NCBI GenBank assembly: GCA_016188075.1
Contig: JACPIO010000025.1
Span: 3,579-67,578, forward strand
Direction of reading: 5' to 3'
Origin: Candidatus Wolfebacteria bacterium
GTDB lineage: Bacteria > Patescibacteriota > Minisyncoccia > UBA6257 > UBA9933
DNA: 64,000 bases
Positions 27,010 to 30,196 of the stretch are shown piece after piece. The notes beneath the pieces were generated by a model. It did not search any database. It was given only the letters and a program-made list of their open reading frames with translations, and was not told the origin of the DNA. The first letter of the stretch is position 1. Every line of letters begins with the position of its first letter. Position numbers and translations under genes: made by a program.

Positions 27010-27840
27010 ATGGGTAGGAGGAATATCACAATTAAAGCTAACCAGCTTCGGGATTTGTATTTACGAAAAGAGTTCACGGCTGCCCAAATTGCAAACGTCC
27101 TTCAATGTACTGACGTTACTGTATTAAACAAACTTCATTATTATGGAATCAAAGTTAACCGGCCAGGTAGAAGAAATTTTAAATATAAAAAATTCCCATT
27201 TGACGGTAACTTATTAGAAAAATCCTACATGATGGGATTTCGTATGGGAGATTTAAATGTTTATCGACCAAAAAATAAGTTATCACGGATCTTTGTTGTT
27301 CGATGCCATACTACTTCTAAAGATCAATTAGGTGTTTTCCAAAAAATTTTCTTTAGGTATGGACATTCAACCGTTTCGGTTTCCCCTGATAATTCTTACC
27401 ACGTAAATTGCTATTTAGACCATTCCTTCATTTTTCTACTGGATAAAAGTAAAATTCCACAATGGATTGGGGAGGCTCCAAATCTCGGTTGGTCGTTTAT
27501 GGCGGGATACTGCGACGCCGAGGGTTCTTTTGGAATAGATCAAGGACGAGGAAGATTTAAAATTGATAGCTACGATTATTTTATTTTGAGGTGGATTAAA
27601 AAATTTTTAGATAAGAACCAAATAAAAAGTAAATTTAGATGTATATATAAACAAGGTAGTTTGCGTAAAGATGGGACGTTGTGGAATAATAATTTGTGGC
27701 GACTCAATATAAATACTGCATTATCGTTGGAGACATTCGTAAGATCTATTTTGCCTTTCTCGTTGCATAAAAAAAGAGTTAAAGATGCTAATAAAGTTTT
27801 AAGAAATATTAAAGTAAGAAGAGAAAATGGAACAATTTGA
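27010..27840 (+). CDS. LAGLIDADG-family homing-endonuclease-like protein with N-terminal HTH; AT-rich
   Basis: FMAGYCDAEGSFG (LAGxxDxEG) plus degenerate first motif MMGFRMGDLNV; ATG 27010 preceded by tataat (track ORF starts at TTG 26959); overlaps the lepA start. Confidence 0.5.
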   Translation: MGRRNITIKANQLRDLYLRKEFTAAQIANVLQCTDVTVLNKLHYYGIKVNRPGRRNFKYKKFPFDGNLLEKSYMMGFRMGDLNVYRPKNKLSRIFVVRCHTTSKDQLGVFQKIFFRYGHSTVSVSPDNSYHVNCYLDHSFIFLLDKSKIPQWIGEAPNLGWSFMAGYCDAEGSFGIDQGRGRFKIDSYDYFILRWIKKFLDKNQIKSKFRCIYKQGSLRKDGTLWNNNLWRLNINTALSLETFVRSILPFSLHKKRVKDANKVLRNIKVRRENGTI

Positions 27841-30196
27841 GAATATACGCAATTTCGTCGTGATAAGTCACATAGACCACGGCAAATCCACCCTTGCCGA
27901 TCGTTTTTTGGAAATTACCAAAACCGTGAATAAACGCGAGATGAAGCCGCAGTATCTGGATCAGTTGGAGCTCGAAAGAGAGAGGGGGATAACAATAAAG
28001 ATGGCGCCTGTGCGTATGAAATACGCACCGCAGAAAAACGCAGACAGTACGCGGAATAACGCAGAAGACTTATTATACGGAGATATTACTTATGAGATAC
28101 GGGCTGCTGCTTTTGAGGTTAGAAAAAGTTTAGGTCTCGGACATAAAGAGGGTGTGTATCATAACGCGTTAATACAAGAATTCAGCAAAAGAGGTTTACG
28201 CTTTGAGGACCAGAGAAGCGTTGATATATTTTATGCCGGTAAAAAGGTTGGTAGTTATCGACCGGATTTTATTATTGAAGACAAAGTCATCATAGAATTA
28301 AAAGCATTACCAGAGCTTGGCCGTCCGCAAACCGAGCAATTGTGGAGTTATCTAAAAGGTTCAGATTATAAGTTAGCCCTTCTGGTCAATTTTGGCAGTA
28401 AGGAACTCGAAATTAAGAGAATCGTCTACGACATAGCTCGCCTTCCGCGTAATTCCGCGTCTGGTCAGCGTGGGTCTGCGCAGGTTGAGGAATATATCCT
28501 CAACCTGATAGATACTCCTGGTCACGCCGATTTCTCCTATGAGGTTTCGCGGGCCTTGGCCTCGGTCGAGGGCGCAATTCTTTTGGTTGACGCGACTCAA
28601 GGCATTCAAGCACAGACCTTGGCTAATTTTGAAAACGCGGCAAAAGCGGGGCTGCGGATTATAGGAGCAATCAACAAAATTGATATCGCCACTCCGGAGC
28701 AGGTGGAGAGTTCCGCGGCGGAATTAACAAATCTTTTGGGCGCCGACCCTTCCCAAATTTTTAAGATTTCCGGTAAAACTGGCGAAGGCGTCCCAGAACT
28801 TTTGGCGGCAGTCATTAAAAGAATTCCTGCGCCAAAAACGCAGATTAACGCGGATCAAAACGCGGATAAACGCGGATACATCAGCGTAAATCAGCGTGGC
28901 AATCCGCGTGAATCAGCGATGCCCGCCGCAAGGGCACTGATATTTGATTCCCTTTACGACGACCACAAGGGCGTAATCGCTTTCGTGCGGGTGATGAACG
29001 GCGAGTATCGAATCGGCGATAACGTCCAACTTATCGCTTCTGATTACAAATTTAAAATTAAAGAGGTGGGCTGGTTTTCGCCGCAGCTCACGCCCGCGGA
29101 AAAACTAAACGCCGGAGAAATCGGATATATCGTGAGCGGCATAAAAGATTTGGGAAAATTAAAAATCGGGGATACCGTCATAAGCGCTGATTTGCGCAGA
29201 TTTAGTACGCAGATAAACGCGGATATCCGCGAAAATCCGCGTCTTGATCCGCGAGAATCCGCGAGCCTGGCTTTGCCAGGCTACGAGGAGCCCAAACCGG
29301 TTGTTTTTGTTTCCCTGTATCCGGAGGAAAGCGATGAATATGAGGATTTTAAGATTGCTCTTTTTAAATTAAAGCTTAATGATTCCAGTCTTTCGCTCGA
29401 GCCGGATTTTAATGAAGTTTTAGGCAGGGGATTTCGTTCGGGCTTCTTGGGCCAGCTTCATTTTGAAATTACGGTCGAGCGGCTGGAACGCGAGTTTAAA
29501 ATAAAAACCGTATCAACTTTTCCTTTAGTCGCCTACAAAATCAGGAGTTCTAAAGGAGAGGAGCTGCTGAAAAAGCTCGATGATTTTTCTGGCGACTCCG
29601 TCGAGATTTTCGAACCAATGATTAAAGTTTCGATTATCGCTCCGCTCTCGCATCTCGGAAATATTCTTCAAATTAAAGCGCGGTTCCTTTTGGATAAAAT
29701 CGAAACGCGAAATTGGGAAAGCAAAATTTTAATTACGGCCCGGATGCCGCTCGCCTCTCTTCTTTATGATTTTTACGGCCAGCTTAAATCAATTTCTTCC
29801 GGCATGGCCTCATTCAGTTATGAGATGGATGGTTATGCCAAGGCCGATCTGGAAAAGGTGGAGATTATGATTGCCGGCGAGGTTCAATCCGGTCTCGGCC
29901 GCTTGATATATAAAAATAGAGTCGAGGGTGAATCAAGAAAAATTCTTTTGAAACTAAAGGATGTTTTGCCGCGACAGCAGTTTAGTCAGGCTCTTCAGGC
30001 TGTCTCCGGTGGCCGTATTATCGCGCGGGAAACCATTCCGGCAATGAGAAAAGACGTGACCGGTTATCTTTACGGCGGTGACCGAACCCGAAAAATGAAA
30101 CTCTGGAAAAAACAAAAAAAGGGGAAAAAGAAACTTCAGGAAAGAGGTCGAGTTTTCATATCGGCGAATGTCTTTAGGGAATTGCTAAAGAAGTAA
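27827..30196 (+). CDS. lepA: elongation factor 4 (LepA) with a ~150-aa GxxExxY/PD-(D/E)XK-like domain and two further low-complexity segments inserted in-frame
   Basis: G1 [9 protein letters not shown], G2 RGITIK, G3 DTPGHADF, G4 NKID, C-terminal LepA domains; 789 aa versus about 600; insert core [30 protein letters not shown]...[14 protein letters not shown]. Confidence 0.85.
   Translation: [789 protein letters not shown]
28031..28070. repeat. left ACGCGGA array (direct orientation) flanking the GxxExxY insert in lepA
   Basis: cagaaaaacg, cagacagtacg, cggaataacg, cagaagac; encodes [13 protein letters not shown]. Confidence 0.6.
28441..28484. repeat. right TCCGCGT array (inverted orientation) flanking the GxxExxY insert in lepA
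   Basis: ccgcgtaat, tccgcgtctgg, tcagcgtgggt, ctgcgcagg; reverse complement of the left array's units. Confidence 0.6.
28838..28920. repeat. self-palindromic ACGCGGA/TCCGCGT array (no cargo) in-frame in lepA
   Basis: aacgcggatca, aaacgcggata, aacgcggatac, then atcagcgtaa, atcagcgtggc, aatccgcgtg; 11-bp period. Confidence 0.6.
29206..29268. repeat. self-palindromic ACGCGGA/TCCGCGT array in-frame in lepA
   Basis: aacgcggatatccgcgaa then atccgcg x3. Confidence 0.6.

What the first reader, a model, noticed from the sequence alone, without database searches (positions are those of the whole stretch)
27827..30196. lepA carries an in-frame GxxExxY nuclease-like domain bracketed by inverted repeat arrays, plus two cargo-less palindromic arrays
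LepA is about 789 aa here versus about 600 typically. Between the G2 motif (RGITIK) and G3 motif (DTPGH) sits an approximately 150-aa segment. Its core ([30 protein letters not shown] ... [16 protein letters not shown]) has the signature of the GxxExxY / PD-(D/E)XK nuclease-like family. At DNA level this segment is bounded by a direct array of about 10-bp units with core ACGCGGA (28031-28070) and by the reverse-complement array TCCGCGT (28441-28484). That is a cargo flanked by inverted terminal repeat arrays. Two more arrays that are each self-palindromic and carry nothing between their halves lie further downstream, also in-frame (28838-28920 and 29206-29268; 11-bp period). They encode [26 protein letters not shown] and [19 protein letters not shown]. 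The reading frame is never broken. No intein hallmarks are seen: no N-terminal Cys/Ser and no C-terminal HN. This looks like a mobile unit and its MITE-like derivatives inserting in-frame into an essential GTPase, comparable to Rickettsia palindromic elements but with a nuclease cargo.
Basis: partly seen in the sequence, partly recalled or inferred. Interest (0 to 1): 0.8.

Follow-up and report, generated by a model that had tools for sequence, protein, structure and literature searches.

The report
Nuclease cassette living in-frame inside lepA
The essential translation factor LepA of this Wolfebacteria genome carries, in frame and unspliced, a small nuclease gene bracketed by inverted arrays of 10-11-bp repeats, and comparison with about 170 other genomes suggests this is a mobile cassette of a kind I could not find described.

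Summary
lepA (27827-30196, 789 aa) holds a complete GxxExxY/PDDEXK_3 nuclease domain (aa 86-200). It sits between G2 and G3 and is bracketed by four CGCRGA units on the left and their reverse complement on the right. Two cargo-less palindromic arrays lie further downstream, also in frame.

- The cassette sits at the same LepA site in more than 90 Patescibacteria, but evolves almost independently of its host (r = 0.04-0.16, against 0.68-0.79 for host-versus-host controls).
- The LepAs closest to this one lack it.
- The same cassette family occurs at two other LepA sites and inside RecG, LeuRS, GatB, glycosyltransferases and about 40 other protein families, always in frame.
- Catalytic residues are invariant.
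- The array-encoded peptides model as low-confidence linkers and the nuclease as a separate, confidently folded domain.
- Free-standing GxxExxY genes of cultured Bacteroidota and Sphingomonas are bracketed by inverted short-repeat arrays too.

No intron or intein features were found. I found no literature on this family's function. The mechanism, nuclease-driven recombinational copying with the arrays as element ends, is inferred and not shown.

The parts
27827..30196 (+). lepA (EF4) host gene, 789 aa, uninterrupted reading frame
   Evidence: TIGR01393 scores 628 bits against a cut-off of 534.
28025..28067 (+). Left terminal array: four CGCRGA units at 28029, 28039, 28050 and 28060. Encodes [14 protein letters not shown].
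   Evidence: (D2, I2). Modelled as a low-confidence linker: residues 73-80 have pLDDT below 50.
28082..28426 (+). GxxExxY / PDDEXK_3 nuclease domain (LepA residues 86-200). Contains GHKEGVY, PDF and ELK.
28442..28483 (+). Right terminal array: four TCNGCG units at 28444, 28454, 28465 and 28475, the reverse complement of the left array. Encodes [14 protein letters not shown].
   Evidence: (I2: 39 nt, 77% complementary). Residues 204-219 have pLDDT below 50.
28835..28920 (+). Cargo-less palindromic array, in frame, in the linker between the G domain and domain II. CGCGGAT units followed by ATCMGCG units.
   Evidence: I3; z = -6.4. Present or absent in a patchy way across orthologues. Residues 351-358 have pLDDT below 50.
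29183..29266 (+). Cargo-less palindromic array, in frame, in a domain II loop. In other LepAs the same site holds a full GxxExxY cassette.
   Evidence: (I22). P0058 and P0063 carry cargo at this site. P0039 has the identical array peptide.
52100..52159 (+). Array of TACGAAA units flanking the second GxxExxY gene. It overlaps the start of fmt.
52160..52618 (-). Free-standing GxxExxY gene between def and fmt. The annotated product P0121 is 136 aa and 100% identical.
52553..52585 (+). Inverted partner array (TTTCGTA units) of the second element. It overlaps the 3' end of def.
62182..62262 (.). Intergenic cargo-less palindromic array with the TACGAAA unit of the second element.
   Evidence: (z = -5.0).
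61797..61850 (.). Intergenic palindromic array of (A)TACGAAT units.
   Evidence: z = -3.1.
8697..8733 (+). One-orientation CGCRGA array, in frame inside rsmH (MraW).
23535..23586 (+). One-orientation CGCGGAA array, in frame inside pgk. A further array lies at 22850-22880.
40956..40997 (.). Intergenic array of four TCCGCG units.

Best explanation
The 459-nt segment 28025-28483 is a selfish, horizontally exchanged cassette. It consists of a small PD-(D/E)XK (GxxExxY) nuclease gene bracketed by two inverted arrays of short repeats, four CGCRGA units each, about one helical turn apart.

The cassette has no start or stop codon of its own. It sits in frame between the G-domain beta-strands that precede and follow it, and I infer that it is translated as part of LepA. 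The arrays encode hydrophilic peptides that model as low-confidence linkers, and the nuclease models as a separate domain.

The proposed mechanism is inferred. The nuclease recognises the repeat units, or the cruciform or hairpin that the inverted arrays can form, and makes a break. The break is repaired by recombination, and the cassette is copied together with a few tens of bases of flanking host DNA. This would spread it into cassette-free alleles of the same site (homing-like), and into sites that already hold arrays. Cargo-less palindromic arrays would be the non-autonomous members of the same system, much as REPINs relate to RAYTs.

In these compact genomes, insertions inside genes survive only if they are in frame, free of stop codons and placed in tolerant loops. 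That would explain why all three insertions in lepA read through.

Shown: the anatomy, the intact active site, the same architecture in about 80 loci, the decoupling from the host, the multiple sites and host genes, and the low-confidence linkers.

Inferred: nuclease activity, its specificity for the arrays, and the copying mechanism.
For: Anatomy.

Same site, many genomes: 92 of the best 120 LepA homologues carry the cassette at the same site, all with repeat-derived flanks.

Decoupling from the host:
- Host core identity against cassette identity gives r = 0.04 over 4186 pairs.
- In an independent set of 42 species representatives, r = 0.16. The controls give 0.79 for one half of the host against the other, and 0.68 for 115 adjacent host columns against the rest.
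- Extreme pairs: host 91% with cassette 53% identical; host 59% with cassette 94% identical.
- At DNA level, L005 and L006 are about 90% identical in the host gene and 55-60% in the cassette, arrays included, with sharp borders.

Absence in close relatives: the 15 LepAs closest in core sequence (66-69%) lack the cassette. The closest cassettes (79%) sit in LepAs that are only 61-62% identical.

Other positions and hosts:
- The same cassette family lies at two other LepA positions. Array-only inserts occupy at least 5 LepA positions in a patchy pattern.
- 77 of 80 loci from a scan of species genomes are embedded in larger open frames. About 45 are in LepA and about 25 in RecG, between motifs II and III. 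Others are in LeuRS, a GT2 glycosyltransferase and a membrane protein.
- Among 57 long representatives, Pfam finds 42 families including PDDEXK_3 itself, so about 40 host families.
- For 13 of 79 cassettes, the nearest relative sits in a different host gene.

Flanks: left flank against the reverse complement of the right flank scores 18.2 within a locus, 13.7 between loci (p = 6e-14) and 7.4 for shuffles.

Co-conversion hint: host DNA within 20 codons of the junctions tracks cassette similarity (r = 0.28-0.31). More distant host DNA does not (r = 0.07-0.11).

Active site: invariant in 92 of 92 copies.

Fold: Cas4/restriction-endonuclease-like.

Full-length model: low confidence exactly at the array-encoded peptides, with the nuclease domain at pLDDT 92-97.

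Beyond Patescibacteria: free-standing GxxExxY genes in cultured Bacteroides, Bernardetia, Prevotella and Sphingomonas are bracketed by inverted short-repeat arrays, with different units. Gemmatirosa has an ACGCGGAT palindrome beside the gene. The Omnitrophota/Planctomycetia-labelled MAG loci L082, L085 and L086 carry CACAGAT-type units on both flanks.
Against: - No target-site duplication or exact insertion junction could be defined. The closest empty and filled sites belong to hosts that are only about 68% identical.
- A PD-(D/E)XK nuclease of about 120 aa is not known to carry out strand transfer. How the arrays reach new sites is unexplained.
- Copies in LepA and RecG of the same genome are only 57-63% identical. 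Recent jumps within a genome are therefore not seen.
- The cassette is somewhat better conserved than LepA itself (0.61 against 0.56). Its active site is intact everywhere. This would also fit a function that benefits the host.
- The link between repeat-unit subtype and protein clade is weak (0.625 against 0.585).
- Two of the eight loci from cultured organisms show no inverted arrays. Fusobacteria has a direct repeat of about 50 nt, and Persicobacter shows none. Treponema has only a single inverted 11-nt unit.
- Nearly all the Patescibacteria data come from metagenome assemblies.
- No expression data are available.
Confidence: 0.62

Rival explanations
1. This is a domesticated partnership, not a parasite. 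The arrays spread or expand by another route, such as slippage or single-strand hairpin insertion. The GxxExxY nuclease would be a maintained, host-tolerated or useful array-processing enzyme. It might resolve hairpins or cruciforms at arrays, or replicate them in trans, as RAYTs do for REPINs. Its position inside LepA would simply be one of many places where an array pair captured it.
For: - The active site is invariant and the cassette is more conserved than its host.
- Arrays far outnumber nuclease genes in the window: 36 arrays against 2 genes.
- Many arrays have one orientation only or lie at gene edges.
- Copies within one genome are old, at 57-63% identity.
- A nuclease gene flanked by its own repeats in inverted orientation is the RAYT/REPIN arrangement (PMC3337134, found).
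Against: - The whole cassette, arrays included, is exchanged between hosts with sharp borders.
- It occupies conserved loops of unrelated essential genes.
- A benefit to the host has not been shown.
Confidence: 0.2
2. This is an ancient domain fusion. A nuclease domain was inserted once into LepA of an ancestor of the Paceibacteria-like lineages. It is inherited vertically and has a role on the ribosome. Absences would be losses.
For: - The same insertion point is used in more than 90 orthologues.
- The catalytic residues are intact.
- There is a weak but significant positive host-cassette correlation in species representatives (r = 0.16, Mantel p = 0.002).
Against: - The correlation is far below the host-versus-host controls (0.68-0.79).
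- There are strongly discordant pairs.
- The cassette occurs at two other LepA sites and in about 40 other protein families, with the same arrays.
- The LepAs closest to this one lack it.
- Free-standing copies have the same flanks.
Confidence: 0.08
3. The segment is removed after transcription or translation, as a new kind of intron or intein. Mature LepA would then be normal.
For: - The inverted arrays could pair in the mRNA and bring the two junctions together.
- The insertion sites lie next to highly conserved motifs, as intein and intron sites do.
Against: - No RNA family hit, even at E <= 1.
- No Hint domain. No Cys/Ser/Thr at the junctions and no His-Asn.
- The frame is open, and the array peptides are conserved as peptides (xPRxSASxPRxSAQV) across hundreds of copies. 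Selection would not maintain this if the segment were cut out of the RNA.
- The domain has no start or stop codon of its own, so it can only be made as part of the host protein.
Confidence: 0.04

Closest known systems
Rickettsia palindromic elements (RPEs)
   Same: Short palindromic selfish DNA inserted in frame into unrelated housekeeping genes and translated as extra peptide segments in tolerated positions (PMC10969869, read). The two cargo-less arrays in lepA, and those in rsmH, pgk and fmt, behave like this.
   Different: RPEs are single units of about 100-150 bp, not arrays of 7-11-bp repeats. They carry no enzyme and no associated nuclease is known. They occur in Rickettsia. Here a full-length variant carries a nuclease domain that is itself translated inside the host protein.
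REPIN / RAYT systems
   Same: An enzyme gene is flanked by its own short repeats in inverted orientation. Hairpin-forming, cargo-less doublets of the same repeat are dispersed in the genome. Different enzyme paralogues go with different repeat sequences (PMC3337134 and PMC3116915). In the window, the CGCRGA family goes with the lepA copy and the TACGAAA family with the def-fmt copy.
   Different: As I know the family, RAYTs are HUH/Y1 transposases, single-copy, mostly vertically inherited, and extragenic. Here the enzyme is a PD-(D/E)XK nuclease, the repeats are tandem arrays, the cassette is exchanged between hosts, and it lives inside coding sequence.
Homing endonuclease genes (in introns or inteins, or free-standing)
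   Same: A nuclease-encoding insert sits at one precise site next to conserved motifs of essential genes, with empty and occupied alleles. Its phylogeny is decoupled from the host, and there is a hint of co-conversion of flanking DNA. PD-(D/E)XK homing endonucleases exist (from my own knowledge: I-Ssp6803I).
   Different: Homing endonuclease genes inside coding sequence normally depend on a self-splicing intron or intein. No splicing element is found here. Homing endonuclease genes have no terminal inverted repeat arrays and no cargo-less derivatives.
MITEs and their parent IS elements
   Same: Terminal inverted repeats, with short non-coding derivatives that outnumber the coding copies.
   Different: No DDE, HUH, serine or tyrosine transposase is present. 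No target-site duplication could be defined. The ends are tandem arrays of a 6-8-nt core, not one long inverted repeat.
Short tandemly repeated repetitive (STRR) heptamer arrays of cyanobacteria (from my own knowledge, not checked here)
   Same: Arrays of 7-nt tandem repeats scattered in a bacterial genome. The window has such heptamer arrays: AATTCAT, AATTACC, TTAGNAT.
   Different: To my knowledge STRRs have not been tied to a nuclease gene or to in-frame insertion. Whether they belong to the same kind of system is untested.

Membership tests
GxxExxY protein / PDDEXK_3 (TIGR04256, PF13366) | Score above the curated cut-off over the whole model | tested here: met
   TIGR04256 scores 120 bits against a cut-off of 35, over positions 1-116 of 116. 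PF13366 scores 115 bits against a cut-off of 22.
GxxExxY protein / PDDEXK_3 (TIGR04256, PF13366) | GxxExxY motif and the PD...(D/E)xK catalytic triad | tested here: met
   GHKEGVY is at residues 105-111, P146-D147, and E157-L-K159. These are invariant in 92 of 92 LepA-embedded copies.
GxxExxY protein / PDDEXK_3 (TIGR04256, PF13366) | PD-(D/E)XK (restriction-endonuclease-like) fold | tested here: met
GxxExxY protein / PDDEXK_3 (TIGR04256, PF13366) | Nuclease activity | not testable with these tools
   The family is listed as function unknown in the superfamily survey (PMC3424549). No solved structure is found by sequence.
LepA / EF4 (TIGR01393) | Equivalog score above the cut-off, with the G domain, domains II and III, EFG_C and LepA_C in order | tested here: met
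   628 bits against 534. The Pfam domains are in the canonical order around the inserts. The AF2 model has mean pLDDT 87.
Intein | Hint domain, Cys/Ser at the N-terminal junction, His-Asn plus Cys/Ser/Thr at the C-terminal junction | tested here: not met
   No Hint family was among the Pfam hits at E <= 0.01. The junctions read ...MKY|APQK and ...SAQ|VEEY, and in orthologues the equivalent residues are H/R/A and V/E.
Group I / group II intron or other known structured RNA | Match to an Rfam covariance model | tested here: not met
   Nothing reaches the gathering score in the window apart from tRNAs. Only two chance-level hits appear at E <= 1 in 27800-29400.
Rickettsia palindromic elements | Sequence membership in one of the RPE families | not tested
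The repeat architecture (tandem 10-11-nt units) differs from what is described for RPEs (PMC10969869).
REPIN / RAYT | The associated enzyme is an IS200/IS605-like HUH tyrosine transposase | tested here: not met
   The only domain in the cassette is PDDEXK_3.
REPIN / RAYT | Enzyme gene flanked by its repeats in inverted orientation, with dispersed hairpin-forming doublets of the same repeat | tested here: met
IS element / MITE | Terminal inverted repeats plus target-site duplication plus a recognised transposase | tested here: inconclusive
   Inverted ends are present. No recognised transposase is present. A target-site duplication cannot be judged, because no closely related pair of empty and filled sites was available.
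Homing endonuclease gene | Empty and occupied alleles of one site, with a phylogeny decoupled from the host | tested here: met
Homing endonuclease gene | Cleavage of the empty allele by the encoded enzyme | not testable with these tools
   This needs biochemistry.

The most novel reading that the evidence does not exclude
GxxExxY genes together with their inverted short-tandem-repeat arrays are an unrecognised class of mobile element found across bacteria. The element would be an autonomous nuclease cassette plus non-autonomous palindromic arrays. The many scattered 7-11-nt tandem arrays of this genome, and perhaps STRR-type repeats elsewhere, would be its footprint.

In Patescibacteria, the class would have specialised in colonising loops next to conserved motifs of essential genes (LepA, RecG, LeuRS, GatB and others). 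There the nuclease is expressed only as an in-frame passenger of the host protein. This would be an intein-like niche without any splicing.
Probability: 0.45. Interest if true: 0.9.

Novelty: categorically new. Interest (0 to 1): 0.82.

Why it matters
- It would add a type of selfish element that fits none of the current classes. It has no transposase, intron or intein, and it survives inside essential genes by being translated through.
- It would give a first functional context to GxxExxY/PDDEXK_3, a very large family of unknown function with 10,522 representatives at E <= 1e-3.
- It offers a testable origin for the short tandem arrays and low-complexity peptide inserts that litter Patescibacteria proteins.
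- It shows that essential enzymes tolerate a 150-residue folded passenger in core loops, which is of interest for protein engineering.
- It explains a recurring annotation error: some insert-bearing LepA genes are named "GxxExxY protein" in public records.

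Tried and rejected
- **Word-indexed search with the insert alone.** It found only 21 proteins, so it was too insensitive. The exhaustive representative search replaced it.
- **A broad 22-sequence GxxExxY alignment.** It was too diverse for the locus scan. I used a narrower one instead (A2). The 80 loci are therefore biased towards the LepA-type subfamily and towards Patescibacteria.
- **A fixed 18-nt two-unit pattern with mismatches.** It was not enriched: 6 matches against 3.25 expected. The signal appears only when the spacing between units is allowed to vary.
- **Sequence search of the PDB.** No hit.
- **Repeat-unit subtype (base after CGCNGA) against protein clade.** Only a weak association, 0.625 against 0.585. 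I do not use it as evidence that the protein is specific for its repeats.
- **Recent transposition within a genome.** Two genomes carry the cassette in both LepA and RecG, but the copies are only 57-63% identical.
- **Target-site duplication or exact junctions.** The closest pair of empty and filled sites is too divergent.
- **Literature.** Searches for GxxExxY, PDDEXK_3, PF13366, TIGR04256 and IPR026350 gave no paper on function or mobility. A search for palindromic in-frame insertions in the Candidate Phyla Radiation found nothing relevant.
- **Intron and intein readings.** Rejected.

Full report
**What is in the window**

The ORF 27827-30196 (+) is 789 aa and has no interruption. It is LepA/EF4: TIGR01393 scores 628 bits against a cut-off of 534, and the Pfam domains GTP_EFTU, D2, EFG_III, EFG_C and LepA_C appear in the usual order.

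Residues 86-200 match the whole GxxExxY model (TIGR04256 positions 1-116 of 116, E = 5e-35) and PF13366 PDDEXK_3 (E = 3e-33). The segment lies between RGITIK and DTPGH.

At DNA level the segment is bracketed by two arrays (I2):
- four CGCRGA units starting at 28029, 28039, 28050 and 28060;
- four TCNGCG units starting at 28444, 28454, 28465 and 28475.

The spacing is the same 10/11/10 on both sides, and the arms are 39 nt long and 77% complementary. I delimit the cassette as 28025-28483. That is 459 nt, or 153 codons (residues 67-219).

Two further arrays, 28835-28920 and 29183-29266, are palindromes with nothing between their halves. Both are in frame. The first folds as a DNA hairpin with z = -6.4, the second with z = -1.8.

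These features are far from chance:
- 23 CGCRGA doublets in the window against 0.23 expected;
- 14 TACGAA doublets against 0.04;
- 36 short-period tandem arrays against 2.5 +/- 1.5.

**A second element and a genome full of arrays**

A free-standing GxxExxY gene lies at 52160-52618 (-). It is 33% identical to the LepA insert and sits exactly between def and fmt. Its flanking arrays use a different unit, TACGAAA / TTTCGTA, and they overlap the end of def and the start of fmt.

Cargo-less palindromes with that same unit lie at 62182-62262 and 61797-61850.

CGCRGA arrays also lie in frame in rsmH (8697-8733) and pgk (22850-22880 and 23535-23586), and between genes at 40956-40997. Heptamer arrays sit inside fmt and pgk and at many gene edges.

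The window comes from a Candidatus Wolfebacteria assembly: P0121 is 100% identical to the second copy.

**Is the LepA segment ancestral?**

Of the best 120 LepA homologues, 92 carry the domain at exactly the same point, after PVRMxY/W. They are Lipton-, Wolfe-, Sung- and Moranbacteria, Paceibacterota and the like, at 48-60% identity. All have repeat-derived flanks of the type HPDRGxTQTDTQNNAE ... FPRESASSPRESAQV.

That looks like conservation, but the cassette does not follow its host.
- Over 4186 pairs, host-core identity and cassette identity are uncorrelated: Pearson 0.04, Spearman -0.01.
- In an independent sample of 42 species-representative genomes, r = 0.16. The two halves of LepA correlate at 0.79. 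A block of 115 host columns next to the insert correlates with the rest of the host at 0.68.
- There are pairs with 91% identical hosts and 53% identical cassettes, and pairs with 59% identical hosts and 94% identical cassettes.
- At DNA level, L005 and L006 are about 90% identical through lepA. They drop to 55-60% across the whole cassette, arrays included. The borders are sharp: right after the VRMLY codons on one side and at ...GCGCAAGTT on the other. Their array units also differ, CGCGGAC against CGCAGAT.
- The 15 LepAs most similar to this one in core sequence (66-69%) all lack the cassette. Several of the insert-free hits are labelled Wolfebacteria. One of them, P0039, has a clean empty site, [18 protein letters not shown].
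- The most similar cassettes (79%) sit in LepAs that are only 61-62% identical.
- Host DNA within 20 codons of the junctions tracks cassette similarity (r = 0.28-0.31). More distant host DNA does not (r = 0.07-0.11). This would fit short co-conversion tracts. I treat it as suggestive only, because these codons are also the most conserved.

**Other sites and other genes**

The same cassette subfamily is found at the position of this window's third array in P0058 and P0063, and at a fourth LepA position in P0105. Array-only inserts occupy at least five LepA positions, in a patchy pattern.

A scan of one genome per species found 171 relatives. Of the 80 loci kept, 77 are embedded in larger open frames.
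- About 45 are in LepA at site 1.
- About 25 are in RecG, between DEQHRFG (motif II) and SMTATPIPR (motif III).
- Others are in LeuRS, a GT2 glycosyltransferase and a Wzy-like membrane protein.

An exhaustive search of 1.8 billion representatives gave 10,522 family members at E <= 1e-3. Among 57 long top hits, Pfam finds 42 families. One is PDDEXK_3 itself and several of the rest are related to each other. They include GT1/GT4 glycosyltransferases, RecG, LepA, GatB, transketolase, RtcB, asparagine synthase and LeuRS.

Cassettes are only weakly sorted by host gene: LepA against LepA 0.64, LepA against RecG 0.58, LepA against LeuRS 0.64. In 13 of 79 cases, the nearest relative sits in a different host gene.

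Across 79 loci, the left flank matches the reverse complement of its own right flank (mean score 18.2). That is better than the match to right flanks of other loci (13.7, p = 6e-14), to shuffles (7.4) or in direct orientation (7.6). The arrays therefore belong to the cassette and are kept as a pair.

**The protein**

E108, Y111, P146, D147, E157, K159 and N188 are invariant in 92 of 92 LepA-embedded copies. The cassette is slightly better conserved than LepA itself, 0.61 against 0.56.

In the full-length model (mean pLDDT 87), the nuclease is a confident separate domain between the G-domain strands 60-66 and 223-229. The only segments with pLDDT below 50 are residues 73-80, 204-219 and 351-358. 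Confidence also dips to 56-76 at about residues 451-470. These are exactly the array-encoded peptides.

The cassette has no start or stop codon of its own, so the nuclease can only be made as part of LepA.

No Hint domain, junction nucleophile or RNA family was found.

**Beyond Patescibacteria**

Free-standing GxxExxY genes on replicons of cultured bacteria show the same bracket with other units:
- Bacteroides finegoldii: CACAGAGG x 3 on each side;
- Bernardetia: CACAGAGA, 28 nt, 86% complementary;
- Sphingomonas parapaucimobilis: CGCGAAG, 25 nt, 92% complementary, wedged between fabD and fabG;
- Prevotella nigrescens: ACAAATC;
- Gemmatirosa: an ACGCGGAT palindrome beside the gene, 32 nt, 91%;
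- Treponema: a single inverted 11-mer;
- Fusobacteria: a direct repeat of about 50 nt instead;
- Persicobacter: none seen.

The three free-standing loci labelled Omnitrophota or Planctomycetia carry CACAGAT-type units on both flanks.

**Interpretation**

The best reading is a selfish cassette made of a nuclease and inverted repeat arrays. It is exchanged between genomes, and between alleles, independently of its host gene. Cargo-less palindromic arrays would be its non-autonomous relatives. Inside genes, only in-frame, stop-free copies in tolerant loops survive.

I infer a copying mechanism driven by the nuclease and completed by recombination. It would be homing-like at occupied and empty alleles, with arrays possibly serving as landing pads. 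Three observations point that way: a nuclease of this size is unlikely to transpose DNA on its own, the borders are sharp, and nearby host DNA seems to travel with the cassette.

What remains open:
- how arrays reach new sites;
- whether the nuclease recognises the units;
- whether the relationship is parasitic or a RAYT/REPIN-like partnership.

**Comparison with known systems**

The cargo-less arrays work like Rickettsia palindromic elements (PMC10969869). The arrangement of gene and repeats resembles RAYT/REPIN (PMC3337134 and PMC3116915). The population pattern resembles homing endonuclease genes. But defining features of each of these families are absent; see the membership table.

Full-text searches for every name of the protein family returned no study of its function or mobility.

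Noticed in passing
window 26959-27840 (+): An ORF of 293 aa lies directly upstream of lepA and overlaps its start by 14 nt. It has a borderline LAGLIDADG_3 match (E = 1.7e-4, 22.2 bits against a cut-off of 22.5). It may be a free-standing homing-endonuclease-like gene next to the invaded lepA.
   Followed up: partly
window, whole (e.g. 7501-7535, 19160-19220, 20453-20526, 23833-23862, 51442-51473, 59908-59949): There are several families of heptamer tandem arrays, some in inverted pairs: AATTCAT/ATGAATT, AATTACC/GGTAATT, TTAGNAT/ATNCTAA and AACNAAC. Many sit exactly at gene starts or ends. No matching GxxExxY gene is in the window. In other genomes, AATTACC-type arrays appear to be translated in LepA as ITNYQLPITN (inferred from the peptides).
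   Followed up: partly
window 22706-23965 (pgk), 8395-9405 (rsmH), 50999-52144 (fmt): Three more housekeeping genes carry in-frame repeat arrays: pgk has three, rsmH at least two, fmt at least one. fmt is 381 aa, and its Pfam N-terminal domain match starts only at residue 148. It probably holds further inserted sequence.
   Followed up: partly
window 22692-22763: tRNA-Gly(CCC) overlaps the first codons of the mechanically called pgk ORF (GTG at 22706). The true pgk start is probably further downstream.
   Followed up: no
window 12842-12897: A weak, partial tRNA-like Rfam hit (31.8 bits, model positions 8-63) lies just downstream of tRNA-Glu. ARAGORN does not call it.
   Followed up: no
window 30200-32608 (+): An 802-aa ORF immediately after lepA has no Pfam match. 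Its N-terminus (GQILAELLIAMAVGV) looks like a prepilin-type signal, judged by eye only.
   Followed up: no
L012 (LepA, Ca. Parcubacteria), about 300 nt upstream of the domain: The left flank is expanded to about 100 residues of nested or reiterated array peptide (…TQNNAEDHTATQPHNDAEITRKETQNSAEDH…). This suggests repeated insertion or expansion at the same end.
   Followed up: no
L038 (LeuRS) and L066 (GT2): Besides the full cassette, these host genes carry additional cargo-less arrays of the same unit type elsewhere in the ORF. Examples are SQTDADYTQNYAE…SASSQRSSA in L038 and IIRVNPRTNPRKSA in L066.
   Followed up: no
one search hits such as P0279, P0309, P0311, P0312: Many representatives of about 250-275 aa contain two GxxExxY domains in tandem (two matched stretches).
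   Followed up: no
L093 (Sphingomonas parapaucimobilis), L089 (Bacteroides finegoldii), window 52100-52620: Free-standing GxxExxY elements are wedged into very short spacers next to or between housekeeping genes: fabD-fabG, directly downstream of radA, and def-fmt.
   Followed up: partly
public records of P0006, P0015, P0017, P0041, P0078, P0103: Full-length insert-bearing LepA proteins are named "GxxExxY protein" in NCBI records. One is filed under Nanoarchaeota. The passenger domain seems to cause these naming errors.
   Followed up: no
L023 (LepA locus): This lepA carries a long QPGSGQ(A/V)L tandem repeat followed by a run of N. It is probably an assembly problem inside another repeat insertion.
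   Followed up: no
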